DNA of 64,000 bases from Balanoglossus misakiensis. Lineage: Eukaryota; Animalia; Hemichordata. Each line of letters opens with the position of its first letter. Positions within the stretch are counted from its first letter, which is position 1. Positions 30,601 through 64,000 of this stretch are shown one piece after another. Location: NCBI GenBank assembly GCA_040954595.2, contig CM082581.2:13341921-13405920 (forward strand), given 5' to 3'. The position numbers and the translations under genes were made by a program. Below the pieces are notes generated by a model. The model worked only from the letters and a program-made list of their open reading frames with translations, ran no database searches and had not been told where the DNA came from.

Positions 30601-33600
30601 GTGACTTTTTTCATATAAATCAATCAACTGTGCTGAACAAGTTTGTCTGTCTCAGCAGTGAACACATGAAATAATGAACGGAAAATTAATCTGTCCAAGT
30701 TACATTTATCTCACAGTATGGTGCCAGTTTTTCTGTGGAGATTATTTGGTTTACTAGTACTTGCAATCAGTTTTTACATAATGTGTGGCTGTATTCTAAA
30801 TCCGGGTAGAGTTCACATCTATATATAGATTTCAATTCGTAGGAAATGACTTTTCTGTCAAGAATTGTGAGTCATCTATGATGGTGTAGGCTGACAGTGT
30901 ACAAGCTCTGATAAGAAGTATATCCTGTGTCTGCGGTAATAATATATGCACTGCATTTCTGATTATTGCTGAAATTCTACCAGCAATATGTAGATACTTG
31001 TAGGGTGATACTGGCGTTTAAGCAGAGGTACATGTATAAACAGGATGATTGCATGCGGTGACATCCTGAATCAGGCAATGCTCTGACGTCAGGGCAAGTG
31101 TAGAGGACACATGAAAAATAACCTTTAGTATAGATTGTATGTTGATTTTAAGATGGCTTGACATTAAATGCTAATAGCATATCATTGTGTTGGTTTTGGT
31201 AGAGACATGTATGCACATAGGTGTGACTGTGATACACTTCAGGATTTCTTCTGTGTACATCCTTGTCTAGTTGATGTCAATCTTGTTTGTGAGACATGCA
31301 CGTAGCAATACAGCTTCTAAATACACCAACAGATGTGTCTGATAGCCCAGAGATAACATAATCACTTTGGTATTTAGAAATGTAACTGTCAAGATATTTC
31401 CGTGAACAATGCCGTATATTTAACTTTCAATCAATATTAATATTTGTTAGCATGACAGTTATATTGACACATGAATAGCATGACCATGCCAAATGGTCTC
31501 CTTAGAGAGAGAGGCTTAATTTAGTATTCATCGTTTCTTTCCAAACTGAAGAACAAAGAAATGATTCTTTGATGCTAGATATGTACAGCCTCAGGGACGC
31601 AGAAAAAAGGCAATTAATTGAATTGGAAGAAATCCAACCAGCTGTGAGACTGAAATGTGGCGGTGTGAAAGTATTACTTGAAATAGAAATCAACTTTCAC
31701 ATCCACCCATGCAGCTTCAGAGCACTTTTCATGTATCAAACACACAAATTCACTTAAAACCGCTGTTCATGAATATCTGTATCTCAGCAGAATTGGGAAG
31801 TCTCCCTCTCATATTTGACTCAAGACCGAAACTGACAGACAATCATGGAGCACACACTGACAATGAAGCGTTAGGTTTCATGTTGGTTTTCAGTGAAATT
31901 AAATTATTCCTTCCTGGCACGCAGTTAAGTAGGAGAAGATTAGCAAAGAGCAAGATGGCTGCCCTGAAGTCACCATTGGATCTTTTCAGTGACCATGACC
32001 ATGGATGATGAAGGAGGATGTTGCTCGTGGTTTGTTTGCCAGAGTTTGGTAAACAGGTTTATACGAGTTTTAATGCCCTTGAGACATAACGTTCTCCAAC
32101 TTGACATGCAAAACAACTGCCACTGGCATTTCACATTTGACTGCCTGGGTTAAAAATCTCCCTGGATGCCAGCGGTTGTTTTGCTTTAGAAATGCTCTGG
32201 ATTCATGCCTGTCTATAAATATTGTGGAATCTATTCCGTGTTTTTCGTGGGCCTAAGAAACACAAACGCACAAGCCTGGAAAATACAGGATAGGTTCTAG
32301 AATAGACCGGCAAACATCCCTTATTGTTTTCGTTTTAAACATCATATTTCATTCCATGTCCCTGGGTATGACGTCGGCTTCAACCAATGAAGATGATAGG
32401 ATTGCATATAAAATGCCATGGTGGTGAAAGGGTCTATGACACCATGACATCAGTGGTCAGATCTGTGTGACACCAAAATGATGTACGCTAGATTCAAGTG
32501 TCAATTTGGCGAACAGAAAGCTTCCACAGTTGACATGAGTCCAATGTGCACACACGTACACAACTACTTTACCCATTTATCACTTTAAAAATGGTTCGAC
32601 CCCCATTGATTTTTAATGGCACTGCTGGGCTCATGCACATGAAAATGGGGGGGAAAGGTTAATGAAAACAAGATCTTGGGAATTGGAAATCAAGATTTTT
32701 TCGAGGAAAATTCCGCATCAATCTAACAAGCTGACAGTTAGCACAGAATGCGATACCGTGTTTAGAAATATAAATTGATGGCTAGAAGCTTCTTAACTGG
32801 CTCATGAAGCCAGAATGCTGAATCAATCATGCAAAAATAATAAACAGTATGTCACTTTGTTAATAGCTATTTTGCTTCAGGTAAGGTTGGAAGCTCGGTA
32901 AACAAGGTCTGTTTGAAGAAATACAATACCAGGAACAGGAATGACATAAGCTATATTATGCAAGACTCGTTCTTTAAAAAAGTGGGAAGAAATCTCCCGG
33001 TTTTCTGACTTCTTGTTCGAGTACAGCTGTGAATTCTATATCTATCCAGGCTGATATATAAGAAAAATATTTGGCAGTTCTTTTCTTACACAGAAATTGT
33101 AACTATAAATAGTTACATGTGCATTTCGCTTTAGGGTTACATGTATACATGTACATATTCAGCAAATGCCATCTATGTTAAGTGCTGTGTGTCACAAAAC
33201 GAAATACATTCTGTTCAACCGGGCAGAAAATTACAAGTAAATTGCCAATTCCATGCGCTTTATATGAGAAAGCCTTTTATCTGATTACAGTTGAATAAAC
33301 TGCTGAATATTGTTCAATGGCCACTCTCTTAATCTGAGATCTTTTTCTGTCACAGCCTCAGTCTTATCTGTGTGTGATTGATGTGAGCTGCGTGGTGGCT
33401 GATATTAATTTACAAAATAAATGTTTCCCTTTTTCAGCATTATAAGTTGGATATAACATCAAATTTGGTTTGTTTCTGTAATTTTTTGGCAGGTTTGACA
33501 TTTTTCTTTGTTTAGTTGTGCATGCAGGGCAGTTCTGAACTGGCATTGGCGAGTCTAAGATCTGTGCAACTAAATGGGAGAATAGAGATATTAATTCATA

Positions 33601-36600
33601 TTTTTGCTGATAGGAGACATATTAGTGATAGAAATATTTGTGTACGTGTGAGTTCTATCGGGCACATGTTTGCACAGGACATAGAGTATATTTATCTGTC
33701 AATTTGAACTGGACATTGAGCCTGACAATGCATATTTACTGAGCCCTGACATTTGTTTTAACTTTGAACCTGGTAGGGAATAATTGATTTGTCCGGGAAC
33801 TGCTGAGAATTATATTTTTTATCGTCTGTCACTTGCTTTATGTACCCAGTAAAGCGCTAGTTTGACTAAAGGTGGTTTGGTATTTTCTGTTATTGCTCAA
33901 CACAACAACCCGGATACTAACTGCAAGTAGGATTATAGGTGATCATTTTCTTGATAAAGATCTTTCAGACTCAGCACTCACAAATGAAACATTCGACTTC
34001 AGCCAGATTGTGTGATGTGATAAACACGTGTAGTACACTGATAATTACTGGTTCGCATGAGAGCAGGACATGACATTCTGTAAATTTGACATTTTTTTAA
34101 TCAGTTTTTGTAATTTAGATAAAAATTTACATTCACAGTTTAATTATTATTCCCACTTTGGTATGATAATGATCAATCTGATTAAAATCAGATGTAGGGA
34201 ACGGCGACTTGGTTTTTTTATGCTGTCAAAAAACCAAGTCGTCGTTCCCTACATCTGATTTTAATCAGATTGGATGATGATGTGAATTTGCTTGTATCAA
34301 TTGTACTTCTGCAGTTTTGCACATCATTGATATTCTACTGGCTTGCTTCAATTTTCCAGTTGTATAATCACTTACGTCATGCAGTTCTAAGCCCTTCCAC
34401 TTTTTATTCAGAATGGGAAATTGGATCAATATCTCTTATTGTGCTCTGTGAAAATCATTAAAAGAACCTTTGATATATTCTGTCCTTGTCAAACAACCGA
34501 GATTTGTTTATCAGAACTCCGTTTTTATTATTTTGTGACAGATGTCTTGTGAGTGGAGATTAAGACATGTGCAAATTTCACATATTTTTGTAAACATGGT
34601 ACGAAATTTGACCCAAAAACGTCTCTTTCGGGGGAAAACCTATTTTGAAGACTGACATTCTGATTATTACACATAATCTTTTTATTTAATTATGTAGGAA
34701 TTGAAAGGCTGTGTGTAAGTTGTGCCTTTGTGCTAATTTAGATGTGTTATTTAAAGCCGATAAAATAAAATTGTCAGCACATAAAACGTGGCAATTCAAT
34801 GGACTCGCTAAATTTGCGGCACCTTGTAGTACATGCCATGTCTTAGAGAAATTTAATAAGAGGCCACATGGCCATGTGTGGACATTAGTCATATTTGTTT
34901 TTGTATTATTTATAGCAGTAAAGGTTAAACCCTCGCTTTTGCTGAAGGTCATGGACAACACAATAAGTGTAATAAACTTTAACTTCTGGAACAGGATGCA
35001 CTCTTGGAACTCAGTACAGTGACCCCAGTATTTTATGGATTTTAAAATGTAAAAAACATGGTAAAAATCCTGGATGTATTTGGTATGTTTAATGCTCATG
35101 TATTAGAAGCCTTCTTTGACTGATCCTGTGGCATTTCTGTTTTTTTCCCTTCTAATATTTGCAGAACTCATTCGCGATGGAATGAATCAAACACTAGATG
35201 ACAGATTCCAAGCCGACCAAAAAGGTTTCATCCTTCAGGTAAGAGGGGTGGATACATTACGTCTAGTATGAGACATTATTTTATTTTCTTCATGGATAAA
35301 AGACATGTTTGTCCACATGATGAATACTTCCATAGTGAAATTTTGTGGTTGGAACCAGAAATGTTATCATTTTAAATCGTCAGTCAGAGATCACAGCTGC
35401 AGGCCCTTTCTCCTGTTGATGAGTCTTTTCAGAACACCTGACTTTGAAATATTTTTCTTTCCTTCACAGGGAATGGAGTACATGGCTGGCTTCATAGTAT
35501 GTCTTCTTATTGGGATATTGTACATACTGATTATGCCAATAGTGTGTCTTTGTTTTTGTTGCTGTCGTTGCTGTGGCTGTTGTGGTGGTAAACGGGTCCA
35601 GAAAGTGACAAAGTATAGCACTTGTAAAAGGGTCTACTTCTCTATATCGCTGCTTCTTATAACAGTGGTCATGGGGTAAGTTTTGTATGAAGCAAATGTA
35701 TGCACAAACACAAGTGCTATATGTTTTTGTTTTCATACTGTTTTATTCAGGGATGTGAACACCAGATTTTGTGTGTGACAGCTTGCAAAAATAAAGGTGT
35801 GCGTGAACCGGTAAAGATGAGAATAAACCTTTGTTAGGAAAAAATCCCCAAGAAATGCTATCGGTACTAACATTTTCAGTCTTTGTATGTTTGTTCTGCA
35901 AAGTGAAAGAAAAATAGAATGCTGGAACACTGACAAAAGGGTAGCAAAGTTTAATCTTTAATAAGTTACAACACTGTCTGCGTTGGCATTTGATAACTTG
36001 TTTGTAGGCGTGGTTTCCAAGTACCAAATGATTGGCTTGAAAATCTGCAGAGTAGTGTGACTGGCAGGCATTGTGTACATATAGACATAAGATTGGCATT
36101 TGTCTTTCTGGTTTGATTTCAGGGCTGGTGTTGCCTGTACAAGCTTATCAAATGACTGGGTGTCAGAAAGTAACGGTGAAATTTATGATTCCTTCACTTA
36201 CATGCTGGATGACACTGTCACTTTTCTGGATGGAGCTGTTGGAGTGAGTTACTATGGTTTTTTTTAAATGTGGGAGTATGTTAGACTCTCTCACAGCCCC
36301 TCTCGCCGTCCATGCAGGCTTATGGTCTGATTGCATGTGTGCCCGACGAGAGATTCGCTACCCAACACCAAACGTTGCTTCTCCCTTGCCAAACGGTTGA
36401 GGGCGTGTCAGTGAAGAGCCTTGTTGTAGCGAACCGTGGGCTGTGAGAGAGTCTAGGAGTATGTATGATGTGTGTGTGTGTGTGTGTGCGTGTGTGTGGG
36501 AGTAGAAGTAGTAGTTCTGAGGATAAAACAAAGGAAGGCTTGGAGAGGGAGGAGGGAGAATAGAGAGGAAGGAGGGAGTGAAGGAGGGAGAGAGAAATTA

Positions 36601-37861
36601 AGCTATCCTAATTACACAGGCTCCTTGCCATCACCATATGCTCAGCCCCACGTCTAATTTTTCTTTGATCAACAGCAACTGGAACACATCACTTCCTGTG
36701 AGCTGTTTGCAACAACAGATCGTGTAATGGTGGAGTTGGATAGTAAGTTCTTTTGTTTGTTTCATTAAAGAACATATTTGTTTTACATTATTGTGGATAA
36801 ATGTGCAAAGCGTACATAATTGTAGAAGTTTTTACGAAACTTTTGACGATGAGATACATTGATGATGGGTGAAATTTCACCTGGAATTGAACACACTGCA
36901 ATACAAGCAAAACAGTATGTTCATGTTGTTGTAACAGCCTTTTGATAGTCGTACATGTGGAGTAGACTTTACTTACTCTGGTTTGTCAAGCAGCTATGCA
37001 TCGTTAAACTTGATATTTTTTTATTTCTTCTATGACAATAAAACTCCATTTATGTTGTCTGTCCACAGATATAGGTACAAGACTTGGAGTCCCCCTTCAA
37101 GAGTATGTGAATGATACTTGCGCACCTATTTTTCAGGAGTTGGACACATTTACAGAGAGTAAGTAGGAGAGGTATCTCATACTTCAGCGAATGATTAGAG
37201 AAATTGAATTGTTTGCATATTGCAATGAAACTTGAGATATGTTTGGCCAGAATGGTTTGGCTGAGGGGTATGCCCTTTACTGGCGAGGGTGGCATCTGAT
37301 TAATAGTTTGGTTGTGTATTTTCTCGCCTTTTGTAGCATTGGATGAAGCTCTTGTGGTCATGGAACACGTCAACGACCTGGTGACTGTGCTGGAAAAGAA
37401 CGCGACAATGCTGGCGACGGAGTTGGAAGACACGGCAACCCAGCTAGATAGTACAGTGGGGGATTGTGGAAGTGCCTGTGATATGATTGATACAAGTCTG
37501 CTGACCATTGGCATGAACTTTTCCTCTGTAAGTATGGAACCTGGAACTCTGTAACAATATAATGGTGTAACGAAGACCCAAAATGTATTTCTTGTAACTA
37601 ATACATAAGATAATGTTCATGTTACTAATTTTAATTCGCTATGTTTTCAGCTACCAAATTTGACAGAAGATTTGGGTTCCCTTAAAGAGTTGTTGAATGG
37701 AGACTTCTCCAATGAGACTGAGAAGGTGAGTGTCTTGCATGCATGCATGCATGTATGTATGTATGTATGTATGTATGTATGTATGTATGTATGTATGTAT
37801 GTATGTATGTATGTATGTATGTATGTATGTATGTATGTATGTATGTATGTATGTATGTATG

Positions 37862-37892
<31 letters not shown>

Positions 37893-40800
37893 CTGCTGGA
37901 ATAAAGTGTAACATGTATACTTTCTGGTTGCCTAGGCGAAAGACGCATTCAACGGAATTCCTCAAACAATAGAGGACCAAACTGCAGTAGGAGTCCATAA
38001 CATCAGCACTGCACTTACAGATTTGGAAGAAGAAGTCGCTGTCATCTTTCATAATGCCACGCAGTTGATAGACGATGTAAGCTTTCTATAATATCCTCCT
38101 GTACATTGTTGTTTTGACATATAACCTTTCAGAATGGAGAATGGTGGTGTGTGACTCTGTTTAAATCTTTGTGCTCTTCTAGATGAAGAAGACAGTAGAA
38201 GAAATAAAAGTTGATTCTCAATATTACTGGGATCTTGTAAAACAAATTGATGACTACAGGTAAGAAATTCAATCATAATCGTTCCTGTCGTTTAATACTG
38301 AAGAAGTCGCCCCATAGAAGAGTGAACCAGTCAACATTTTTTTCAGTTCTCAAAATACAGTTTATTCCTTCTTAAAAAGAGTTTACTGCGAGTTTATTCT
38401 TTACAATGAAGCTGAGTACAAGAAAAAGGTACAAAGTCCTGGCCATATTCTGGGTGTGTGAGGTTTTTTCCTATATCCACTCCACAAATTTGAAATGATA
38501 GATCTATGTGTCATTTTTCTTGTTATGTACTAGGTACTACACGGTGATCGGCTTAGCTTGCCTGACTCTCTTGATAGTGGTGATAAACGTAGCCGGCATG
38601 TCCATGGGTTTGTGTGGGACCAAGAGGGATGCGCATCCAATGGAGAGAACTCGCCTGTCGAACGCAGGTGGCAACATCCTGATGGCGTGAGTACAATTAT
38701 CTTGTTGGCATTCACGGATTCATGCCTTTTGTGAATTCAGATGGGCAGCTTCTGGTCTGACACAACTTTCCATTTCTTGCAGTGGCGTTGCATTCTCCTT
38801 CTTTTTCTCTTGGCTGCTGATACTGATTGTGATGATCTTGTTCTTTGCGCTTGGCAACGTGGGTCAGCTGTGTGAACCACTGAATACCCTGGAGATCTGG
38901 GAAGAGGTGAGTGTCGTAATTTTTCTTCAACATACATGTACTTGGCACTGACCCACTGAGAGAACTAGCACCCCTGTCAGTGATACACCATGTTTGATAG
39001 GTCCAAACACACAATCTTAGAATCAAGAAGGTAAATGAAAAAAAGATGACACTTTTATTTGTTTGCTCTTCTATTCACAGACTATAGATTATCCATATTT
39101 GCTTAATGACGAAGGATATTTATTAAGTGGTTTGATCTACGATGATCCATCGATCAACCTGACAGTATCTGGAATCCTGAGTGACTGTGGATTGGACCTG
39201 TCCCTCTACAATGCATTAATGCTGGAACATCAAATTAACCTGACTGTACTCACTAATTACAAAGACGTAAGCATGGAGAAGGATTTTGTTCATTTTGCGA
39301 TGTGTGGATCCCCCCAAAAGGGTTCAGAAGATGTTCAGGGTGTGGATTAAATAGGTTGTGCAATAATCAACATGAGAGGGGCGCAAACGGTCTCTTACCC
39401 ACCTCACAGGCCATTTCTTTAAATACAGAACACTTCAATAGATGTACAATGTTCACAGTTCCCCATTAAAGAACAGTACAGTGTGCTGCTGTTCCACACA
39501 TCTACATCTACTGATCTTGACAACTTTGAATCTTTCAGAATCTGGAGATAGAGTCAGCTATCCACGATATTCTAAAGGATATAGACTTGAGTAGCCTGAC
39601 AATATTTCCTGATGAACTGAACAAAACCCTGCTAGAGTTCAAGTCAACCTTACAGTCTCTCAATGAATCTCTCTCTGAATACACAGAAATGGTGAGTGTA
39701 AACTTGTTGGTACCAAAACATCAAGTTCCCGTGGAAAAAGTCCATGGTGTTTTTACCAAAAAGATGTTTTTGTTTCTGCTATATTTTCTGTGAGATAATC
39801 AGAGTCAAAGTTTTTCTTTTTCAAGGTAGTTTCAAGGAATCAGGACTTTGTACATGCAGCTATGATGTTATGGCTTCTTGAAGGCTCGACATTGTAAACT
39901 TCAGACATACGCCCTCTGTGTCAAGGAGGATGTCCACTGCAGATCAGTGACTGCAGATTGTGCAATACATCTTTCAAGATTTCACTTCTGTAACATATGT
40001 TTTTGTTTAAACTATCTAATGTATGTTTCTACATTTCTGAAGTTATTAATGATGTTTTTTTCCTGATCCAGTTGTCAAATAACAATATTACAGAAGTGGA
40101 TCTCTTGGTATATGCTGATCGACTGTATGATCTATCTGTCAGTCTAGATAATGTAAGTATGTCTCTAGTACACACCATACCATCACCTTCTTATGTAGAG
40201 ACATTGTCGTACACTGCTTGTCTGTTATTGTGCAAATTGTTACACTGTGTGTCTGACTGCTTTTAAACCAGCACGCAAAAGAACTACCTAATTCTAGAAT
40301 ATTTCCTTTGTATATCAGTACACGATCACTGTCAACAGTTATCTTGAAAAGAAATTATTTGCTTTTTGACAAGTGCTCGTTGTAAAACACTTCATAACTT
40401 GATGTGTTTGTTCGTTACACACACAGGATACAATATCACCGGCTCTGAATGAAAGCGCAGCTGATCTGACCAGGATTCACTACCAGTACGTTGTACCCAT
40501 GGAGATTGCTTCAGTAAGTCCGAATTGACCACATGCAAGGGTTGTGAGTGGCCTTGATATAAAAATAAACAATGTCCGTGTGCAGCTAGTATTTCATCAT
40601 GTGAAAAATATGATTACTGCATGAATTAAGTGGAACAAATACACCTATATACAGTGCATCATTCTATCAAATATGGATAGACGTACATTTACAGTATTTT
40701 TCTGCTGCACTCTCTCCTCCAAACAGGACATGTTGCTTGACGAGATAGACAAACTGGGAGTCCTGAGTCTTGAACTACAGAACTCCATCGATGATCTGAT

Positions 40801-42033
40801 CGTAGCATTTGAAGAGGCCGATGAAAAGATATCGTCCAACGATACGCTGATATTTATTGAGAACGAGCTTCTGGCTTTCTCTGACGAACTTCTGAACTAC
40901 ACTGATCAGTATGTTGAATACACTGTCTATCAGGTTAGTACTGACTGCGCAGACTATGATTGAAGTCTGGGGTAAAATATGTTTACGTGGCAACATTAGT
41001 GGAGCATCTCTTAAAAGGGGTTAGCTGCTGTGACATTTGATATTTTTAGTTTCTTCTTCCTAAACCTTCTTAACTTACGCTGTTACTCGACCCTTTAAAA
41101 GAACCTGTACATTGCAGCTAGTGTTGACATTGTTTTAATACAACTAACTCAAGTCCACACTTCAGTTCATCATGTGCAATGTTAGAGATAGACATACTGC
41201 AGAATGTTCACTATGTCAGTCACGGTGGTTTTAATTTTTGTTGTATGAATTACATATGTTTGCTTATAGATCAGTGAAGAATTAGCTCGCTGTAAGCCCA
41301 TTAGGACAATTTATGATTCTGCCGTGGTAGCTCTCTGCAACTACGCCATCGACTCGCTGGTAAGGAAAATTCTCAAGCTTGCTTCATAAAGTTGAAAACT
41401 GTTCGCAATCAACTACATGTACACTAAAAAGCTAACACGAAGTCTGGTTTTGGGTGTTGCCAGCACAGAACAGCTTTGAAAGTGTTCAGTTGACTTCATC
41501 ACAGTGTGTGTGGCAAATTCTGATATTGCAAAGATAGAGAATGATCTAAATTTTCCTTGCGCAAAATACAAGTAAAAGGTTAAAGACTTATTTTGAGACG
41601 ATAATGAGTGATTCATCCAACTTTGTCTTCTGCTTTTCAGCATTTGATCTGGTTCACACTGGGGTGGTGCATGTTCTTCTACGTGCCGAGCATCATATTC
41701 GCCGTCAAGCTGGCCAAGTACTACCGCATCATGTCGGCTGAGCACAAATCCAAGAGCAAGAAGAAGAAGAAGAAGAAAGGCAAGGATGATGTTGAGGATC
41801 TGGCCATGAAGGACATGAATGGAGAACCAGAGATTCCACCTTATGGAGGTGATACAGCTATTACAATCACATTACCTTCCACTAACCTTATAAATAATGA
41901 CGAGTACAGAAACGTCCCAGAAAACTCCATTTTAGTCGGGAAAAGGGGCAAGAGGTATAAACTCACGTACGTTCCGGAGGATGGGGACGGCGGAAATTGC
42001 TTCGTGCCGGTGCTTCATGAAGCTGATTGTTAG
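27664..42033 (+). CDS. PROM1: Prominin (5-TM glycoprotein), short-tail isoform ~920 aa, 19 coding exons
   Basis: join(27664..27910,35165..35238,35470..35675,36123..36243,36676..36742,37069..37158,37337..37527,37651..37725,37936..38076,38183..38259,38534..38686,38783..38906,39081..39266,39539..39691,40072..40152,40427..40513,40727..40933,41270..41359,41641..42033), 2763 nt, phases consistent. Shows a signal peptide, FINIVQP, TM1 followed by the Cys-rich FCCCRCCGCCGG, SNAGGNILMA, GNV..LCEP, ARCKP..YD...LC and WFTLGWC..FYVPSIIFAVKLAKYYR. The symbol denotes family membership, not strict orthology. Confidence 0.93.
28926..28978 (+). mobile_element. Solo right end of a TA-flanked MITE, similar to the element at 63607-63784
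   Basis: ttcgcgaaaatt...ctcgtgaaaatttcccattttacagta resembles the ctcgcgaaaataaagtggtttacagta terminus at 63758-63784. No matching left end seen. Confidence 0.5.
34174..34272. repeat. Long inverted repeat/hairpin (~45-bp arms, ~9-nt loop) in prominin intron 1
   Basis: The left arm caatctgattaaaatcagatgtagggaacggcgacttggtttttt is the reverse complement of the right arm apart from one G/A difference. Confidence 0.9.
36282..36455. mobile_element. Non-autonomous DNA transposon (MITE), 174 bp, 18-bp perfect TIRs, 9-bp TSD
   Basis: TIRs TAGACTCTCTCACAGCCC / GGGCTGTGAGAGAGTCTA, flanked on both sides by GGAGTATGT (36273-36281 and 36456-36464). Confidence 0.9.
37751..37890 (+). repeat. (ATGT)n microsatellite, ~35 units, prominin intron 8
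   Basis: Perfect tetranucleotide run; source of the MYVC/HTYI ORFs. Confidence 0.97.
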
Positions 42034-44086
42034 TGATGTCTGCAGGGTTTTGCTAAATCATGTGTGCTGTGCATGCATTATTTATATCACCAAGCTCATC
42101 ATGAGTTCAATTATGCTTAGATAATTTACATCATGCCATAAAGAACATTTCAGTCAGTATTATAAATGTTTCTCATGTCAGTATTTTCAAAATATTTCTT
42201 CCGATAATTAACTCTGCTGTTGGCACAAAAAAGACCTTAAGAAATTTTATAAACTTATACTTTGAATTTGTTCTCTGAAGGAAATAATTTACAGTTTACA
42301 AAAACTTTGTTTTCAATACTCAAGAGATGAATTATATTAGAAAGTAAGTTAAAGAAAAAAGTCTGAACCATTTAAAAAAATGATACAATTATTGTGTAGA
42401 TCTTCCGTACATCAAACCATTGTCAGTTTCATAGCCATACATTGTCACCATATAGCAGTAATCACATGATTTCACATCATTGCTTTGTTGTTAAAGAGAA
42501 TGAAGATTCTGCTGTTACAAAGTTTACCTATTTAATGTTTGCACAGAAAAACACTAATTTTGATAGGGTGCTTTCAGGCTTGCAAGGTGAATTCTGAGAA
42601 AATACGTCTGATGTAGCAACTGTGCAATGGTACTGCTCATTATTTACAGAGTGCAATGCAATTATATTTTTTCATCAGCGTTTGATGTCATTTAAGACAT
42701 TCTTCCAGTACAATACTGCAGTACGCCATTACTGTTTTACTTCAAGCACAATTTGCAACATACATGCACATTTAAAACCTTGTCTGGCATAAGTTGATGA
42801 GAACTTAAAACTCAAGATATCTTGGGATAAACGCAGTTACCTGGAATAGCAACCTAGAATATTTTATACATAGGCCACTCTGTCAAAGTTACATTTGGTA
42901 ACCTTGGATGGGTACAGGATGTGTTTGTAGGCATTGTTACAACTTGTGACTGCTCTTTCTGGTTTGGTGTGTTGGTTCATTTTGTCAGTGAGGGTGTCCC
43001 ATGGACCTAAATGGTAGTGTTTGGTAAGATTAGCTGTGTGTAAAATTGTTGTATCAAAGAGTGCTAGTTTACGAGTTGTGGAAGTTGTTGCGGTTAATAT
43101 TGTGAGGGACAGGGTGATACGGCAAAGTGACGAAGGGCAGGAATTTCGATGGTGTATTTTGTTGTTGTTTTTTGGATGTCAATCTTCTGTCAGTTAATCC
43201 AGGATCCAGGATTGTGTAATCAGTATTTGCCTTTCCATCACCATAGCTTGGTCCAAATCCACTGTTTTCTATGGTAAAGTTTGACCCCTCTATACAAGGA
43301 AATAGGGAGGAAGGCGTACATGTATTTGCGGTTACCTTCAGATTGTGTTTCAGTTTAGGACCAAAGCTAATGCTTCATTTGGGCTGGTGTTTCTTTTTGT
43401 GTGAGTTCAGCTGGGTTTTAAATTTTTGTCTTTTAATGGGTTCAGTCACCATGAGTTTGTTCAACTCTTGAGTGTCAGGTCTTTACAGTTCTACCTCTGT
43501 TATAGCAATGCAATATTTTCTTTTTTACTTTCTACAAGTTGACAACTCCTTTGAATTAATTTTATTGGTGCTCACTTTACAACTCATGCAGGACTCAAAG
43601 GGTGATTGACTGTGAAATATTTTTTAATCCACAACTTCTGGGGCACACTGCCAGCTTATTTTACTTGTAATGCAATGCAATTTTAAAATGCAAGAGGTGC
43701 TTATTGGTCAGCCCCATTTTAAACAAATACGCACAGTTGATGGCACAGAATATGAATACAGAAGAAAAACAAATAATCACAAAGTATAAATAGTAGAATT
43801 TCTCCAGAAATATTGCACTTCAATAAGGAAGCATGGGCAACAATTGTAATATAAAGGCAATTTATTAACAAGACTTCATAATATATTTTATTCTATCATA
43901 CTGCTGTAATTTTCATCCATTAATCAGCAATTTGCAGTAATATGTTATGGAAATCCTACTTATATGCTTTCTTTCATGGACAAAATAACTGTACATATAG
44001 TTTTATAAAAGGAAACTGTTCCATGTTGACATTCTAAGGACCTGTAAATATGTTCTATTTTTGTTCATTCTGTGATCAGATTTACT

Positions 44087-44092
44087 AATAAA
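44087..44092 (+). terminator. Probable proximal polyadenylation signal of prominin (short isoform)
   Basis: AATAAA about 2 kb after the 42033 stop, followed by T/GT-rich sequence and upstream of the cassette-exon array. Confidence 0.5.
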
Positions 44093-44853
44093 ACATGACT
44101 AAAACCCATGTGTATGTCTGATTCATATTTAATCTCATAGTGCTCTTGTTTCTGTAAAATTGCTTATTCATTTGTTAAAAGTAATGTGTTGCTTTTGTCT
44201 TGCCATAAAAAAGTAGGATTTCCATATTTCTGCATTTTGTTATGTTTTTAGTTGCTAAGGTGAATCTCTTTTGGGTGATGATTTCATTTCTGAAGTTTAT
44301 TTAACTTTTATTAGTTTGCACTGTAACCTTATTCTGCTGTAGAGTTATGGTTAATCAAATCTTTGTTTTGCATCCTCCACGAAATTTTCATGGCAGGCAG
44401 TAGAAGCAGTTTCAGAACCCTCAAGGAAGGATTGAAACTCAACATACTTGCTTGATTTGATTTGTGCATGATTATTGACAAGGGTGCAAAACCGAGAACT
44501 TTAAAATTATTTCTTTGGCAGAATTCTTTTACTTGTAGTGAGCAAGCTATCAAATGATAAAGCCAATTTTGTTTTTTCAAATTGCACCCATCACTTATGG
44601 CATATCATCTTCGCAAATTGTGAAAAAAAACATTCATCACTCCATGAAAGAATTTTCAGAGAAAATCTATATGCCACTTGAATCGTGATAGTGTTTTTTG
44701 TGTGTATCTTGGTAATTATAATCAAAATCGTGAACAGACAAATTCATGCCACATTCCATCCGATGTCATTGTGCATCACTTTATTTCCACCCCAAAAATT
44801 CACTGCAAAATTCATTTTTGTTGAGTCATATGCTTATTGAAATCATGTTGCAG

Positions 44854-47800
44854 AAGATTCACATTCAGGCAATCGTCGAAGAACCAACCATCCACGCTAT
44901 GATGCAGGTTAGCCGTGATTTGTGTGAGGTGTTCAACTCATCATAACCATCAGAATAAACTGCCTGGTTAAATGATCATAATAGTGATAGTAAAATGAGT
45001 TTAACTGTACTGGTAACTCTATTCTTCGGAAAACGTAAGGTGAAAGGTCACTAGTCAAAACTCAAGCATGATTGAAGTTAGAAACCATCCATTCTCGTGT
45101 CATGGTGGTGTTTAAGGTGTTATATTATTACATTGCATTACAGGGAACTCTATGTCAAACCTATCTTCACCCAGACGCACAGATCATCTTGAATATGGCT
45201 ATGCAGGTCAGCTGGGTTACATATTGTGTGAAACAATGATAGCTGTCGGAAACTTTAGTGATTCAAAGCCATTTTAGTCAATATTTCATCCCAACTCTGG
45301 TGTGGTAAACAGTGTACTCGTACATGCCATTATGTACTGTATATTTTTAATGAACAGTTTCTTCAAACCCACTCGCCACAGAAGTTTTCCCAACCCTAAA
45401 TTGGTGCTACTTAATATTCAGTAATGGAAACTTTTTCATTGACTTCTCTATAAATGTTGATGTCATATATTCTCTCGCATTTTGCTCCTAGACAGTGGAC
45501 ACAATATAAAGTTCTCATCTTCTACTTTTCTAGCATTAATTAATACATCCTTTTTCTGATGCACAGATCTAACAACATTCAGCAGTAATTCTTCTTTCCT
45601 GTCAACCTGAAACATCACCCTCCCCCCTCTCCCCCTCTCTCCTAGCGGTTCCTTGTGTGTTCCTTTAACCCTCAGCTTCTCTGTCACCTGGTAATGTCAT
45701 GTGGATCACACTGTCTTCTTTTCTTTAACAGACACTAATCAACTGATACAAGGCCAGAGTCAGGGAGCTGCCGCGGCCGGGGCTGTTAACTACAATTACA
45801 ACAGTGGCCCTAAAACTAACCCTCACTACATTCATGGTAGGTATCTGTGTACTACAAACTGGCTTTCCCTTTATTTCCTGTGTGTAAGCCTCATATCTGT
45901 TCTTCCCTCACTCAATACAGCAGTTTCACCCCTGTGTCCTCGTATCTGGGCCTGGCATCACCACTGCAAACAATGTGTATGGACTAAACCATGGCTGTTA
46001 AAGAGGTGATATAGTACACACCATGAAGATGACAGTTGTCACTTGTACTGTTGAGAAAAAAAGACAGCCATTTTGAAGTTTTCTTCAAAGCCAGGTTCAG
46101 TCAGCACGTGAATGTGAAACTTGTTATTTTTGATGAAGCATTCTGAAAATAAGTGAGCTCTATCACACCTTGATGTATTCTATATTATTTTACAGATGAT
46201 CCCATCATGGCATACGACAACCCCAGGGGTGGTCGACCCCCACCCTACAATGGTGAGACCCCATTTGTATCGCCTAGTAATTACTTTTGATGAGATTCTT
46301 CCTGTAAGATGTCATGCTTGGTCTAGACTATGCTGGTCATATCTTCTTACTCTTTTCTTTTTTTACGATTTCTGATGATTGTTCTGGTTGTAAAGATTTC
46401 TTTTGTTTCACTAATTAACAATTTTAAAGGTGTGCAATTTTCTAATATTACGAAATGTGTGGACTGTTTTATTCTTCGTTGTTACATTTTAAAATCCTGT
46501 CAGAGGCTGAGTTGGAGCAATCGGTGTGTCAGTTTGTTGATGGTAGGTCTTGCCCTGACTCGCAATTAATAACACTTTGACCACTGCAGCTGTGGTCAAG
46601 TCTAACTATTTGCAAGTAGAAATAGGTTTTCACCAAAAAGTAGATTCTGAAATTTATGAAAATTGGGGTAGTTCCATAACTGACATCACCTTCTCCAATA
46701 ATGAATATTTGAGGTTAAAATCCATACTTGCTTCCTGTTCAAAAGAAAACAAAGTTGTATGCTACAAGTGTTGCGTGTAAATAGTGTTGGGTTTTGCAAA
46801 TCATTTGTCTTCACTAAGACCCAACACTTATAATGTGAGAAAAGGGAAAATGACACTCTCAAACAAAGATCAGTATATGTTTTTCTGGTTAAAATTGGAT
46901 CACACATTCTGTAAATTAGCTATTTTTCTAATCAAAGAGTTTCTAGTTAGAATTAGAATTTGTTGTTTCTTAAATGAAACTGATTTAGTCATTTATACAC
47001 AGATTTGACAAAATTTATAATAGACAAAATTTGCACTGTAACATCATAAATCTCTGATTAAAGGCTGGGCCAAAATAGTCAATATACATGGTATTATGGG
47101 ATCATATAAGAAACGCTATTAAACTACAGAATCTAATGAAAGCATTCTGCTTAATATTTGAGACACCGGCATTGACAAAAGCAGGGGCATTTAGTTGTTT
47201 AGACACCAATATGTGTTGAAATGAACCAAGCTACTTGTTATTGCTGAAATGTTACATTAAATATTGGAACCAAAGTGCTTGAAAAAAAGAAACATAATTT
47301 GAAAAATCTAAGCAAAACAAGATGATCCATAATTTAGGGCTTACCAGAGTACTATTTTCAACTTAAAGGCATATGTATGTAAATGAAAATGTTCATATAT
47401 ATTTATACAACTGTGTGACTCAATTCATATATTTGAATATTGTAAATGATCTGGTCCGTTTCTGGTATAGATTTATGGCCTTCAAGTGAGATATTTCTAG
47501 CCCAATAAAGGAAAGAATTTTCGGGGTAAATTCTACTTGCTGTCTTCCTGAAAACAGTATTGTGTGGAAAGAGTGCGAAAAGGTGTGATCGCTTCAAAAT
47601 TTCCAAATTCAGGGTTTATAGTATCACATTCCACACAGCAAAGCAATAACAGATAGATCAGCTTCTGTCAGTTTTGAATTGCTACGACTAGTCTGAGAGA
47701 TCACCACCACTGCGATGGCAGACTTTTTTCCCTGTGGGTAGGAATACCTCATTGAAGACCCAGTGTTTTAGTATCCGACAGTGTTACAGTTTTTTCCTCT

Positions 47801-50800
47801 ATAGAGTTAGATATTGATAAATGGAAAGAGTCTTTTACTTCAAAAGGAATAAACTTCAAATTGTACATAACCAGCTTTCGATTGGCTATCATGTGTTTTC
47901 CATCGTGCGTGTCACATGGATCATTTTGTGGGGAACATGGATCATTGGGTTGGTGACTGTGTCTTGTTTCCGTTTGTCTGATGTTTGTCATTCCTCGCCT
48001 TCATAATCATGTTTTGGTTTTCATTCCATATAGATCCTCGCCAGTACAACGGAGTGCCGGCAGCCTACCAGTTTAGGCCACTACCGGAAGCACCTCACGG
48101 TATTTGAGTTTGTTGTATTGAAATCATACATTCTCTCCCGTCACCTCTGCTTTTCTTCTTTTTTTTCTAGCTACTGTAACAGACTCTGGTGGATTGGGTT
48201 CTGGGTTTCTCACTACTTAGCTAACACATTGAGACTTTGCAATAAAAATGAAGTCGATCTTGAAAGTTGATCAGAGAGTTTCTGTCGAACAAACTTCAAG
48301 TTGAGACAGAAAGTACAAAGAGTAAAAGCAGTGCGCATGATGACCAATATTTGAAGATGAAATTTACGGACAAGTTGTGCTGTCATAATCAGCGGTTCAT
48401 AGCACATTTCAGAAAGCAAATTAACACAAAAAAATACCAATGAGACCAAAACTACCTTGAGATCAAAACTTTAATCAAATCATTGTCAAATGGTGGTCAA
48501 CTTGCAGCATCATTTCAAATGCAGTCACAAGTCTCAATGTCACCTTGCAAGGATAAATGAAATTGCGACTAACACTTCTCTGCACAGGATACTAACACAC
48601 AAGGCCATGCATCTTTAATACCTGCCAGTATCCTGTTCATCTCTTCTCGGTGTGATATTAACACTTGACTTCTCTGATTGTTTGTGTGTTTATTTCAGAC
48701 AGACATGTCAAGATTGACATTACTGAGTAGGCAAAGCATAGCCTCAAAACAGAGCATATTGATCGTATACCAAGTTCAACCCATTGGGATGATGGCTATA
48801 TTTGATACATTTACCTAAATTGGCATTTGCTTTTCTTGCTCAGAAATGTTAAAATTGACATCAGATTGTCTCAGTCAAAGCAGTTGTTGTACCATTGTGT
48901 TCAACTGCAGTGATGGACCTTTATATGTCAGGGAAATGGGGGGTGAAAGGGTTCAAAATATTGCTTCACTTGCATACCAGTTGACTGTTCTGCTGACAGC
49001 TTTTACTTTCCTCCTCTCCAAGTGAAACCAACGCTTTACTTTTTAGGTGATAATTCCTGTCCATCTCCTGGCTGTCCTGCTGCAGTGTGTGTTTAAACAC
49101 TATTCTTTTTCCATGTGACTTTTGCAGACGTACATTTGTTTATCTATTAACTTTACTTTCTTCTTCACTTGGTACTCCAACCTTATGCTGTAAAAGTGGC
49201 ACCCCACCTTGTAAAATAGCTTTTGTCAATGTTATGCTGTTCTTGCATAATTTGATGTGGAAAAGAGCAATCATTATCAAACCCTTCCATGTGAGTTAAC
49301 GAATTTTACAAGACAGGAGCACCACTTTCAGTACACTTGATGTCAATAATCCCTTTACTTAGTTACCAACTTTTTTCTCAGTTGTCAACATAACAGCAGA
49401 TGAGAGCTGGCTAACTCAACACAAATCTTAAGCGACTGAATGGACAACTTGCATACACTCTTCCTTTCATTCTAGTCTAACCTGCGCTCTTTCCTTCATA
49501 GGTGAAGGTTCCTTTCTTACAGGCGTAATTAGTTGTGGTAGTGGTAGTACACACAGCTTGCTGACTGACCTGTGATAATGTGCCAAAATCTTGGACATTA
49601 CCATAACCATAACCATACTTTGAAGAAGATATTATTGCAAAGATTCAATTTGGCTTGTGATATTGGACATGAACATATTCTACCTAATAGTGCTGTAATA
49701 ACATTTCTTACAAATTTGACAATCTGTAAAGAGTACCATATATTAACAAATGCAGTGCAACAGTTCTCAATGCAGTAATGATCAACAACACTCAAGGTCA
49801 TACTGGTGTTTTGCATGCCAAGTCTGGCCTCCAATTTGCATATTAATGTGCTAACATCTGCTCTCCTTACTAATCTTGCTAATCTTGATCTGTTGTTCAG
49901 GCTTCCTGGCATGTAGTTTTCTTTAGGCTCTCTGTGGTTCAGAAGAAGTCTCTCCTAAGATTGCAACAGGTATCATCATGCTCATTGTTGTCCATAAGCA
50001 TTGCATGCCCATTTTCCATTTTATTTTCATGACAGCCAACACCAGAATCTCATCCCAACATCAGACACGCACATCACAGCATGAATCACGTTCATCACAA
50101 CATCCGAAACACAAGAAGAAGTCCTCTGCATCCAAGTCCCGTACAAAACACCGCGAGAGCAGCAAGCAGCATGTTGACCACTATCCCAAGCAGAAATATC
50201 CCAGCAAGCCTGTTGGTAACTATAGTGACCAACGCAGTAGTTTCAGTGGCAGCTACATGTACCCCAGCAATCAGTTCAGTGGGCAGCGCAGTAGTCAATA
50301 TGGCCGCCAGGGCAGCGGTTACTATGACTACCCCCAGGGGATGGACTATGGCTACCAGCGCAGCAGCAGTTATCAACCAGACGGGGAGGATTACCTCATG
50401 CCACACGAAACACCACAAATTAATTATTTCAATGACCTGTACCGCCATGGTCCCAAGGGTAACTAAATCATTTTCCATATTTCGTCAGTGCGTGTGATTT
50501 TGTGTTGCAATCAATGTGCACTGTTCGTCAGAAACGGTTCATCCACCAACAGAACTTTGCCTGTCGTGTTTCATTTTCATGCAGCCATCATCATTTTGTG
50601 TGTCATCCTCTCCAATAAATATGCAACTGCATGCAAAAGGAAATTTTACTAATTGCATGACAGGAATGCTTGTTACAAAGTTCATGGGAATAATGCACAA
50701 TGCTGTGTGAGGTTTTTTTGACAGTCCATATTTAGATGTGAAAATCCCAGTAATGTAGTGTCTGCTACTAGTAGTTGCTTTTCTGATGGTATGACTTGTG

Positions 50801-51235
50801 TTTAAGCAGTTGTTACCCCCTTATCCTCAATGGTTCAACCCTGTTGTTTTTAATGGTTCAATTGGACCGGTCTACTGTAAAGTAGGGGAGGGGTGAAATG
50901 AAGTTTATAATAACATTGCCTTGCTAGTTTGGTTTTAGTTTTCTAGGAGTGTATGCGATAAGACGCACCTGAAAACAGTATTTAAGATGCTTTCTTTCTA
51001 GTTTGTTAAATCGCTTCAGATGTCATCACAGAATGTGCTGAATATGTAAGAATTTGAGATATGGTCAGCAGCATGCACTCACTCACAGACTGCTATTCTG
51101 TTCCTTTCAGGGAAATCAAGATATGAAGCTCCCAACAGTGGAAGCAACTGGTCTTTCGGCAGCGAACCTCAGCAGGGACGTCAGGCAACTGCTAATTCAA
51201 CCTCATTCACTCAAGATGTTAACCACCTGTATTGA
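44854..51235 (+). CDS. PROM1: Alternative C-terminal coding exons of prominin (long cytoplasmic tail)
   Basis: Entered from an internal phase-1 donor at 41848|41849. Phase 1-1 exons: 44854..44907, 45144..45206, 45732..45836, 46196..46252, 48034..48099, possibly 49023..49046, and 50036..50458. Last exon 51111..51235. Candidate alternative last exons: 48699..48730, 49502..49575, 49901..49926. All have AG acceptors, the internal ones have GT donors, and all keep the prominin frame. Confidence 0.7.
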
Positions 51236-51661
51236 AAATGATCATACAACTCCCCTTTTTCTCTCAATAATGTTGTAATTGTAATCATAATGTTTTTAGA
51301 CGAGAAGTGGGCTTCACTGATCAAAGCTAGGTTTCCATGCAGCTTCCAGGGGTAATTTACCGTGTTTTAATTTATCTCAGGTGTTTGGGTTTCATGGAAG
51401 TGATGTTCTGCGTGCAGAGACCTTAGACTTGATTCCGAGAGTGGATGCCAAAACATGCTGCATTGTGGGTTGTTGAAACACTGGTCATCATGTACCAGGG
51501 TAGATTCAACTTCAAAGTACATGTACATGTACTTCACTGAGATAATTTTTCTATGCAAACACAACATATCATATTTAGTTATTTGCAATATCTACCAGCA
51601 GGGCCAAGAGCAATGTACTGAAGACCAGCAATTAAGTATCAACCACTGAGTCAACTTAGCA

Positions 51662-63127: not shown

Positions 63128-63503
63128 CCAATTAACAATTAGAGCTTCACCAGGTGCTGTTTTGCATGTGCCACCCATACCCATGAGAATTTCCGTTGTG
63201 AAATAGTGTGCTTGATGACGATGGCATGGATGGTGTATTCTTTCTGGACCAGAAAACGCATTAAAAAGTGAAACAGAAAAACATCGGAGGATGCTGAGGA
63301 CGACTTGTTGTTCCTGGATTTGAGAGAACTTCCCGGAGAATATTTGCAGAACTGTATGTCGGAGGAAATTGCCATTCCATCAAGTTTGTCGAAGTCTGAC
63401 CCATCAAGCAACAGGTACAGGTGAGCACATAGGCCTTCCGCCATGTTATGTTAGTGATAACATGGCACGATTACAAGCTCATACTCCCCGAGAACAAGAT
63501 GGC
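63128..63503 (+). repeat. Diverged dispersed repeat, copy B (homologous to 53228-53560)
   Basis: See copy A. The antisense ORFs at 53289-53495 and 63139-63444 both contain LLDGSDF because of this homology. Confidence 0.75.
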
Positions 63504-63606
63504 GACCCGTCACATTCATTGCACACGTGCAACCTATGAAGACCGTAATTCGTTGCTATATCTTTTTCTAGGGAATAGTAAATAGTAATCGTGGCTTGTT
63601 ACAAAC

Positions 63607-63784
63607 TACTGTAAAACACTTTATTTTCGCGAGCAATTATTTTTCGCCAAATACGCGAGAGCCAAAATAGCGTAAATTGTTTTTGAAGATAACGATGCAG
63701 TGAATGAAATAAGAGAACGCGAAAAAGTGGCCTCTCTCGATATCGCGAAAAATTTAACTCGCGAAAATAAAGTGGTTTACAGTA
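63607..63784. mobile_element. MITE with ~25-bp TIRs and TA target duplication (Tc1/mariner-superfamily-like)
   Basis: TA|CTGTAAAACACTTTATTTTCGCGAG ... CTCGCGAAAATAAAGTGGTTTACAG|TA, with one mismatch between the TIRs. Confidence 0.85.
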
Positions 63785-63930
63785 TGTTGTTTATATGTCC
63801 CTTGTTTATATTGTTCGGCATTTGAGCTAGCAATGGCAAATGCCCCCAAGAGGAGCAGCATCTATGATAATGCACCCCGCGTGGTAAACTTGTTTAGCAT
63901 CGCGACTGCGGAAAAACGTCGTCTAGCTGA

Positions 63931-64000
63931 AACAGGTACAGGTGAGCACATAGGCCTTCCGCCATATTATGTTAATGATAACGTGGCACGATTACAAGCT
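63931..64000 (+). repeat. Recent direct duplication of 63410-63479 (runs to the window edge)
   Basis: 70-nt copy aacaggtacaggtgagcacataggccttccgcca...tggcacgattacaagct with 3 substitutions. Confidence 0.9.

What the first reader, a model, noticed from the sequence alone, without database searches (positions are those of the whole stretch)
41849..51235. Prominin cytoplasmic tail built from a combinatorial array of phase-1 cassette exons carrying signalling motifs
Seen: after an internal phase-1 donor in exon 19, six or more exons all have lengths divisible by 3 and phase 1-1 boundaries (54, 63, 105, 57, 66, possibly 24, and 423 nt). Any subset therefore keeps the frame. They encode compact motifs: AYDNPRGGRPPPYN (a PPxY WW-domain ligand plus a YDNP tyrosine motif), QFRPLPEAP (class I SH3 ligand RxLPxxP), and a long Ser/Gln/Gly/Tyr-rich low-complexity segment. 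Established: vertebrate prominin-1 varies its short tail by splicing. Inference: this tail (~300 extra aa) is far larger and more modular, acting like a splice-programmed adaptor that could recruit NEDD4-family ligases and Src-family kinases, or form condensates.
Basis: partly seen in the sequence, partly recalled or inferred. Interest (0 to 1): 0.7.

Follow-up and report, generated by a model that had tools for sequence, protein, structure and literature searches.

The report
Splice-swappable sorting signals on prominin tail
A likely acorn-worm gene for the membrane protein prominin has a long inner tail built from six frame-preserving exons; predicted transcripts of related animals leave out matching blocks, and the best-kept blocks carry short motifs that likely decide whether the cell keeps, internalises or sheds the protein.

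Summary
A 26-exon prominin gene model (1156 aa, open frame) has six phase 1-1 tail exons (54, 63, 105, 57, 66, 423 nt) and a last exon; all 64 subsets stay in frame. The 24-nt exon is unsupported, and the exon-19 donor is probably its normal end.

No RNA run was listed for this DNA. Predicted RefSeq isoforms of orthologs (Ptychodera 15 seen of 16, Glandiceps 6, two crinoids 9 and 8) share one core per species and drop matching blocks.

These and PPxY occur in 10 of 10 ambulacrarian orthologs; the SH3 ligand in 3 of 10. PPxY occurs in 49 of 144 prominin tails (8 expected), and in 0 of 33 in the vertebrate clade.

Best reading: a splice-set trafficking and ubiquitination code, probably evolved separately from vertebrate prominin-1 tail splicing. 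Binding is untested. The scan earlier noted shared invertebrate tail motifs in a placozoan prominin. New variant of a known kind.

The parts
27664..41359 (+). Prominin core, coding exons 1-18 (signal peptide, TM1-4, both extracellular loops); intron phases mostly 0 (12 of 18)
   Evidence: Pfam Prominin hits on 6 of the 11 core-exon pieces scanned; 67% identity to the Ptychodera core
41641..41848 (+). Exon 19: TM5, KLAK motif, lysine-rich juxtamembrane stretch (12 Lys in the first 45 tail residues); weak phase-1 donor (4.2 bits)
   Evidence: (Pfam E=3.7e-8)
41849..42033 (+). 61-codon read-through of the exon-19 donor, probably chance; an in-phase alternative donor lies at 42028 (5.5 bits)
   Evidence: 3% chance; no poly(A) hexamer within 700 nt
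42578..42586 (+). Candidate 9-nt phase 1-1 microexon (G-L-Q); unverified
   Evidence: Only hit of a targeted scan of 41849-45732; acceptor 4.3, donor 5.9 bits. Three hemichordate orthologs have G-L just before this junction
44854..44907 (+). Cassette A, 54 nt, phase 1-1 (RTNHPR); weak acceptor (0.4 bits)
   Evidence: matches a Ptychodera block (p=0.004) present in 7 of 15 isoforms
45144..45206 (+). Cassette B, 63 nt, phase 1-1 (RTDHL); least supported; internal acceptor at 45183 would give 24 nt
   Evidence: position matches blocks in Ptychodera X2 and Glandiceps, similarity not significant
45732..45836 (+). Cassette C, 105 nt: acidic dileucine-type motif DTNQLI at its start (45732-45748; Asp from the split codon) and NPxY (45818-45829) near its end
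   Evidence: [DE]xxxL[LIVM] 10 of 10 (1.0 expected), strict [LI] form 3 of 10, NPxY 10 of 10 (1.4 expected)
46196..46252 (+). Cassette D, 57 nt: invariant Tyr (46213) and PPxY (46237-46248)
   Evidence: PPxY 10 of 10 (2.2 expected); block of identical length skipped in Ptychodera isoforms
48034..48099 (+). Cassette E, 66 nt: RPLPEAP (48075-48095); very weak donor (0.5 bits); read-through stops at 48107, with AATAAA at 48241
   Evidence: (3 of 10); alternative ends in Ptychodera X12 and Glandiceps X6 start with Gly, as read-through would give
50036..50458 (+). Cassette F, 423 nt: low-complexity, basic first half, Ser/Tyr/Gln/Gly-rich second half, EDYLMP; read-through stops at 50466, with AATAAA at 50614
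   Evidence: 0 of 20000 intron samples stay open for 140 codons; skipped in Ptychodera and Glandiceps isoforms
51111..51235 (+). Last coding exon: NWSF and C-terminal NHLY-stop, kept in 4 of 4 hemichordates

Best explanation
This is a prominin gene whose tail is encoded by six frame-preserving exons, and alternative splicing likely uses them as a sorting code that would set whether the protein stays on membrane protrusions, is internalised, or is ubiquitinated and shed in vesicles. SHOWN: exon anatomy and frame independence; every tail exon ends in G, so each junction residue is fixed by the incoming exon; orthologs carry the same blocks, and their predicted isoforms drop them; three motifs are kept across hemichordates and echinoderms. 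INFERRED: (1) skipping also happens in this species (weak donors, skippable counterparts); (2) exon C recruits clathrin adaptors, AP complexes through the dileucine-type motif and PTB adaptors such as Dab2/Numb/ARH through NPxY; (3) exon D binds WW domains of a NEDD4-family ligase, which ubiquitinates tail lysines such as the constant Lys-rich stretch of exon 19, feeding TSG101/ESCRT sorting as reported for human CD133 K848; (4) exon E (SH3 ligand) and exon F (Tyr-rich disordered spacer) are younger hemichordate tuning modules. About 0.9 that the exon array is real and alternatively spliced; about 0.6 that trafficking control is its main job.
For: 64 of 64 subsets open. One core sequence per species in 15, 6, 9 and 8 isoforms of four species, so all their variation is in the tail. 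16 distinct tail junctions in Ptychodera, 11 in Glandiceps. The same skips recur in separately annotated species: C+D and F in Ptychodera and Glandiceps, C in both crinoids, E in Ptychodera and both crinoids. Tail donors are weaker than core donors (5.2 vs 8.4 bits, p=0.002). Dileucine-like motif, NPxY and PPxY are each in 10 of 10 orthologs, in the same order. PPxY is in 49 of 144 family tails (shuffles mean 8, max 18), with 84 matches in 9,922 tail residues against 1 in 113,835 core residues. Motif roles: PMC5297682 passages. NEDD4/K848/TSG101 in human CD133: PMC13651184 and PMC11776279 passages.
Against: No transcript of this species was seen. RefSeq isoforms are predictions; that they rest on RNA-seq junctions, with whole chains partly inferred, is recalled knowledge. 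The strict dileucine form is in only 3 of 10 (the others end in V or M), and the relaxed pattern was chosen after seeing the alignment. The 10 orthologs are related, so the shuffle expectation overstates significance. NPxY lacks the upstream Phe of (Fx)NPxY. Acceptors are not weaker than core (p=0.40). In sea urchin C and D go together (7 of 9 have both, 2 have neither). NPxY and PPxY also serve signalling. Exon B has no significant homology. No binding was tested.
Confidence: 0.6

Rival explanations
1. Splice-programmed signalling adaptor: the tail mainly docks Src-family SH3/SH2, PTB and WW signalling proteins, and splicing sets the signalling output.
For: RPLPxAP in 3 of 4 hemichordates (0.06 expected over 10); 30 Tyr in 341 residues; an acidic DYL motif in exon F of three species; human CD133 Y852 lies on an optional exon and binds Src SH2 (PMC13651184).
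Against: The SH3 ligand is absent from Saccoglossus and all 6 echinoderms. YDNP is in 2 of 10, and YxxP is no more frequent than in shuffles (8 of 10 vs 8.7). The YDDV Src site of vertebrate prominin-1 reads KDDV here.
Confidence: 0.2
2. A long, mostly constitutive tail with tolerated splicing noise: the motifs matter, but the many isoforms are rare frame-preserving skips that annotation pipelines chain together.
For: No RNA evidence here; Saccoglossus, Amphiura and Asterias each show one tail model; C and D move together in sea urchin; runs of same-phase exons are common in disordered regions (PMC3632108).
Against: The same skips recur in independent species; donors are weak only in the tail; the same annotations show no core variants in four species.
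Confidence: 0.15
3. Condensate scaffold: the main role of splicing is to switch the 141-aa Ser/Gln/Gly/Tyr block on or off, clustering prominin by phase separation.
For: Exon F counterparts in three hemichordates share composition (49-57% S/Q/G/Y/N, 11-13% Tyr, net charge +6 to +10) and are skipped as one block; no secondary structure predicted after residue 819 of the Ptychodera protein (a low-confidence model).
Against: No match to exon F in Saccoglossus or four echinoderms; composition is typical of many disordered tails; no condensate predictor was run.
Confidence: 0.05

Closest known systems
Vertebrate prominin-1/CD133 tail splicing (exons 24-28 and F27'; ten C-termini; PMC3047580 Table 1, PMC10967083)
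   Same: Same family and domain. Optional small exons change the tail. In human an optional segment holds Y852 (Src SH2) and, by my reading of Table 1, K848, the NEDD4 target four residues away.
   Different: Vertebrate tails are at most about 60 aa, against up to 341 here. PPxY is in 0 of 33 vertebrate-clade rows. The vertebrate junction residue is D whatever exon follows and E on read-through, which implies phase 2 (inference), against phase 1 here. By eye, the first vertebrate junction falls inside the stretch encoded by exon 19 here. The arrays are probably independent.
Ambulacrarian long-tailed prominins, annotated 'prominin-1-A(-like)' (Ptychodera XP_070539601-21, Glandiceps XP_077991895-900, Saccoglossus, Strongylocentrotus XP_030841336-44, crinoids, sea stars, Amphiura)
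   Same: Orthologs (100/100); same C-D motif block; isoform models vary in the tail.
   Different: Already in RefSeq as predicted isoforms, but I found no paper describing the array or its motifs. Exons E-G are hemichordate-type; echinoderms have other blocks after D.
Arthropod prominin-like and other invertebrate PY-bearing prominins (Zeugodacus, Hydra, Oculina, Priapulus, Ruditapes, Patella, Mytilus)
   Same: PPxY in the tail; Zeugodacus, Ruditapes and Patella models also vary the tail.
   Different: A separate branch for arthropods (100/99 split). In Zeugodacus the terminal PY stays in 5 of 5 forms; here it sits on its own cassette.
LAPTM4/5 (PY motifs, Nedd4-dependent sorting) and LRP1/megalin tails (NPxY, YxxPhi, dileucine); PMC5297682
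   Same: Membrane proteins routed by the same motif classes.
   Different: Unrelated proteins; used only as a model of how the motifs work.
Symmetric, disordered, motif-bearing alternative exons (PMC3632108, PMC3437557)
   Same: The general principle fits this tail closely.
   Different: Here it is six exons in a row on one tail, with a motif block kept across two phyla.

Membership tests
Prominin family (PF05478) | Profile match | tested here: met
   7 of 16 exon translations hit Prominin, 2 above the whole-protein cut-off on their own; best E=7e-19. All 8 homologs of the TM5 query carry PF05478.
Prominin family (PF05478) | Five membrane spans, two large extracellular loops, Cys-rich first intracellular loop, KLAK after TM5 | tested here: inconclusive
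   Five hydrophobic stretches, the Cys cluster and KLAK are visible in the translation. No topology predictor was run, and the ortholog model was low confidence (mean pLDDT 46.7).
Prominin family (PF05478) | Cholesterol binding and localisation to membrane protrusions | not testable with these tools
   Needs cell biology.
Vertebrate prominin-1 (one-to-one ortholog) | Groups with PROM1 in a tree | tested here: not met
   Ambulacrarian clade 100/100; sister to a short-tailed ambulacrarian group at 82/85 (unstarred); vertebrates form their own clade 100/98 (31 rows).
Vertebrate prominin-1 (one-to-one ortholog) | YDDV (Y828) motif and exon 24-28 tail layout | tested here: not met
   The window has KDDV; junction position and inferred phase differ.
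Frame-preserving cassette exon array | Lengths 3n, same phase at both ends, no stops in any subset | tested here: met
Frame-preserving cassette exon array | Skipping seen in transcripts of this organism | tested here: inconclusive
   No direct data; only predicted isoforms of orthologs.
Dscam-type mutually exclusive duplicate cluster | Exons are tandem duplicates, one used at a time | tested here: not met
   No pair of the five small exons is similar at DNA level (best p=0.28). A vs B with flanks ranks 3rd of 78 pairs. C, D, E and F occur together in ortholog isoforms.
Sorting and docking motifs (acidic dileucine, NPxY, PPxY, class I SH3 ligand) | Pattern match and conservation | tested here: met
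   10, 10, 10 and 3 of 10 (dileucine in relaxed form; strict 3 of 10). The RxLPxxP class label is recalled.
Sorting and docking motifs (acidic dileucine, NPxY, PPxY, class I SH3 ligand) | Binding to AP complexes, PTB, WW or SH3 domains | not testable with these tools
   Needs binding assays.
Prion-like / condensate-forming domain | PLAAC-type score and phase separation | not tested
   Composition only.

The most novel reading that the evidence does not exclude
A PY motif for NEDD4-family ligases is an old, unrecognised feature of animal prominin tails, found from cnidarians to insects and sometimes overlapping a TSG101-type PSAP site, as in viral late domains. One ambulacrarian paralog split the endocytosis, ubiquitination and SH3 signals onto separate exons, so splicing programs residence versus uptake versus vesicle shedding. 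Vertebrates lost PY and rebuilt a smaller switch with different exons, a case of convergent splice control on the same organelle-shaping protein.
Probability: 0.3. Interest if true: 0.72.

Novelty: new variant of a known kind. Interest (0 to 1): 0.5.

Why it matters
How prominin is sent to microvilli, cilia or vesicles, and what its tail variants do, is open even for CD133. Here the candidate signals sit on separate exons, so natural isoforms are ready-made deletion experiments in sea urchin or acorn-worm embryos. The PPxY enrichment across invertebrate prominins also offers an origin for the NEDD4-CD133 link, and asks how vertebrate prominin-1 reaches NEDD4 without such a motif.

Tried and rejected
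No RNA holder was listed for 41600-51500, so no reads were laid; this is no evidence either way. No whole genome is held, and no ortholog DNA was available, so dN/dS and ortholog exon phases could not be computed.

Exon F alone found nothing among longer proteins, a weak search: Ptychodera does match it in pairwise alignment. The protein atlas gave no usable hit for the Ptychodera tail. Rfam gave 0 matches in 27000-54000.

Rejected: orthology to arthropod prominin-like. FastTree suggested it (0.94); IQ-TREE with a mixture model separated them at 100/99. No AU test was run.

Rejected or unsupported: tandem duplication of exons A and B; the 24-nt exon; the exon-19 read-through as a real isoform; pairing elements for exclusive splicing (nothing distinctive in the repeats listed); family-wide PSAP/PTAP (4 of 144, shuffle max 5) and YPxL (11 vs 8.3 expected); family-wide NPxY (11 of 144, shuffle max 11-16). 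The AlphaFold model (6-row alignment) is too poor to prove disorder. No complex prediction was run: no WW or AP partner was at hand.

A scripted tally of junction residues per ortholog block was not completed; isoform counts are read. The primary NEDD4-CD133 paper (PMC6048314) was not held, so whether that contact is direct is unchecked.
Full report
GENE. The + strand carries a prominin gene from ATG 27664 to the stop at 51235. A 26-exon model reads 1156 aa without an internal stop. Seven of 16 exon translations hit Pfam Prominin. The core is 67% identical to Ptychodera flava, 55% to Glandiceps, 52% to Saccoglossus and 33-37% to three echinoderms. The window is therefore most likely an acorn worm (inference; tree 100/100).

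OBSERVATION. Six internal exons after exon 19 (54, 63, 105, 57, 66 and 423 nt, here A-F) are phase 1-1. All 7 tail introns are phase 1, against 3 of 18 in the core (p=2.5e-4). All 64 subsets stay open and give tails of 85-341 aa. Every tail exon ends in G, so the junction residue depends only on the incoming exon. Tail donors score lower than core donors (5.2 vs 8.4 bits, p=0.002, matrix from only 18 sites); acceptors do not (p=0.40). The 24-nt exon has only weak candidates and no ortholog block. The 61-codon read-through of exon 19 is within chance (3% per donor, and two other donors of the gene read through for 57 and 61 codons).

ARE THE EXONS USED, AND SKIPPED? No run could be laid on this DNA, so the evidence is comparative. 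The TM5 query found 8 prominins, 6 of them long-tailed orthologs. Their clusters hold many RefSeq isoforms: Ptychodera 16 (15 listed), Glandiceps 6, Antedon 9, Anneissia 8, Strongylocentrotus 9 plus one older model, Acanthaster 2. In the first four species all isoforms share one core sequence. Blocks deduced from isoform differences alone match the window's exons: D 19 vs 19 aa, E 22 vs 22, C 31 vs 35, F 148 vs 141, A 26 vs 18, B 17 vs 21. In 15 Ptychodera isoforms A occurs 7 times, B once, C 13, D 8, E 11 and F 7 times, over 16 junctions. The same skips recur in different species. Limits: A with B was never seen; D without C was seen in 0 of 21 hemichordate isoforms, but in 4 of 9 and 4 of 8 crinoid ones; sea urchin keeps C and D together (7 of 9); Saccoglossus, Amphiura and Asterias show one tail each. 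These are predicted models, and whole-chain combinations may be inferred by the pipeline (recalled).

WHAT IS CONSERVED. In 10 ambulacrarian orthologs (4 hemichordates including the window, 6 echinoderms) three motifs stand in the same order. A dileucine-like [DE]xxxL[LIVM] opens exon C (10 of 10; strict [LI] form 3 of 10), NPxY closes it (10 of 10), and PPxY ends exon D (10 of 10). Shuffles expect 1.0, 1.4 and 2.2; the rows are related, so this shows retention rather than independent draws. RxLPxxP is in 3 of 10 and YDNP in 2 of 10. The Tyr of YDNP is invariant, in a YxxP context in hemichordates and a YxxL context in echinoderms. Exon F aligns to Ptychodera, marginally to Glandiceps (p=0.03), and not to the other five species tested. 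It shares composition with both. The last exon is conserved in hemichordates only.

FAMILY CONTEXT. A profile search returned 150 representatives, 144 with a locatable TM5. Their median tail is 49 aa; 37 reach 100, 4 reach 200 and none 300. PPxY is in 49 of 144 tails (shuffle mean 8, max 18), and only once in 113,835 core residues. Named carriers include Hydra, Oculina, Priapulus, Ruditapes, Zeugodacus, Patella and Mytilus. In a 132-row tree (the representatives with 740-900-aa cores, 28 named proteins and the window), the clade holding the five named vertebrates has 0 of 33 with PPxY, against 48 of 99 elsewhere; for tails under 70 aa it is 0 of 33 vs 10 of 55 (p=0.012). Each cluster is represented by one isoform and most rows are unnamed. 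The careful tree (31 rows) puts the gene in an ambulacrarian long-tail clade, weakly sister (82/85) to a short-tailed ambulacrarian group and apart from arthropod prominin-like; deeper branches are unresolved.

MECHANISM. Shown: anatomy, frame independence, conservation, and block-wise variation in ortholog models. From the literature: [DE]xxxL[LI] and NPxY are read by AP-1/AP-2 and by Dab2/Numb/ARH, and PY motifs bind Nedd4 in LAPTM4/5 (PMC5297682). Human CD133 is monoubiquitinated by NEDD4 on K848 and sorted through TSG101 into vesicles, and Y852 lies on an optional exon (PMC13651184; PMC11776279). Inferred: exon C adds uptake, exon D adds ligase recruitment, and E and F add lineage-specific docking and spacing; isoforms lacking C and D would stay longer on protrusions. 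Weak donors followed by near stops and AATAAA after E and F suggest further truncated forms. Odds: trafficking code 0.6, signalling adaptor 0.2, splicing noise on a constitutive tail 0.15, condensate switch 0.05.

COMPARISON. Vertebrate prominin-1 has ten C-termini from small optional exons (PMC3047580 Table 1; PMC10967083). In that table the residue after exon 24 is D in all nine spliced types and E in the unspliced one, which implies phase 2 (inference). The array here works like the vertebrate system but is probably not homologous to it. The link between symmetric exons, disorder and motifs is established (PMC3632108, PMC3437557).

IN PRINT? Eight searches listed no paper on hemichordate or echinoderm prominin tails. 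'Prominin + PPxY' gave 4 papers and 'prominin-like + WW domain' gave 1; none concerns this by title or abstract start, and I saw listings only. One search was loose (20 of 927 shown, none with prominin). Two prominin reviews had no PPxY in the text held. Subscription papers are not covered and no supplements were read. What I saw of each paper: PMC3047580 passages and section 5; PMC10967083, PMC13651184, PMC11776279 and PMC5297682 passages; PMC3632108 abstract and passages; PMC3437557 abstract and outline.

VERDICT. A real, conserved feature: a new variant of known prominin tail splicing, larger and more modular, with an apparently undescribed motif block. Function is inferred throughout. Interest 0.5.

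Noticed in passing
window 46253-46290: Reading through exon D's donor gives a 12-residue end that resembles the end of Anneissia isoform X7 at the same position (6 identities, 2 forced by the donor; 2 of 20000 random read-throughs scored as high). Noticed by eye first; no poly(A) hexamer within 700 nt. Possibly an old short isoform ending just after PPxY.
   Followed up: partly
window 42578-42586: Candidate 9-nt microexon (G-L-Q) with a TGC just upstream of the acceptor; three hemichordate orthologs have G-L at this junction, which the window's exon 19 lacks.
   Followed up: partly
window 44854-45748 and 51111-51235: A short T/V-N/D-H/Q-L word recurs in exons B, C and at the C-terminus, and partly in A; DNA similarity between the exons is not significant.
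   Followed up: partly
P0154 (Oculina), P0050 (Branchiostoma), P0232 (Priapulus), P0234 (unnamed): PSAP/PTAP in 4 of 144 tails, overlapping PPxY in the coral; [TS]APP in 10 of 144 (shuffle max 4).
   Followed up: partly
144 prominin tails: [DE]x[IVL]P[LM] occurs in 37 of 144 tails (shuffle mean 0.7, max 4), including the optional vertebrate exon 26b; partner unknown.
   Followed up: no
window 8220-9700 (+): C2H2 zinc-finger gene (Pfam); resembles Snail/Scratch factors (recalled).
   Followed up: partly
window 16890-17318 (-): One open frame of 142 aa with a weak fatty-acid-binding/lipocalin match (E=1.9e-5, just under the cut-off).
   Followed up: partly
window 18328-19041 (-): PRELI-family gene pieces.
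   Followed up: partly
window 23634-24683 (+): Uninterrupted 349-aa O-methyltransferase frame (Methyltransf_2 plus dimerisation domain).
   Followed up: partly
window 27911-35164: First intron is 7254 nt, against 96-447 nt for the other 17 core introns; tail introns are 236-3005 nt.
   Followed up: no
window 63400-64000 (+): Two near-identical short peptide stretches about 520 nt apart near the window's end; not identified.
   Followed up: no
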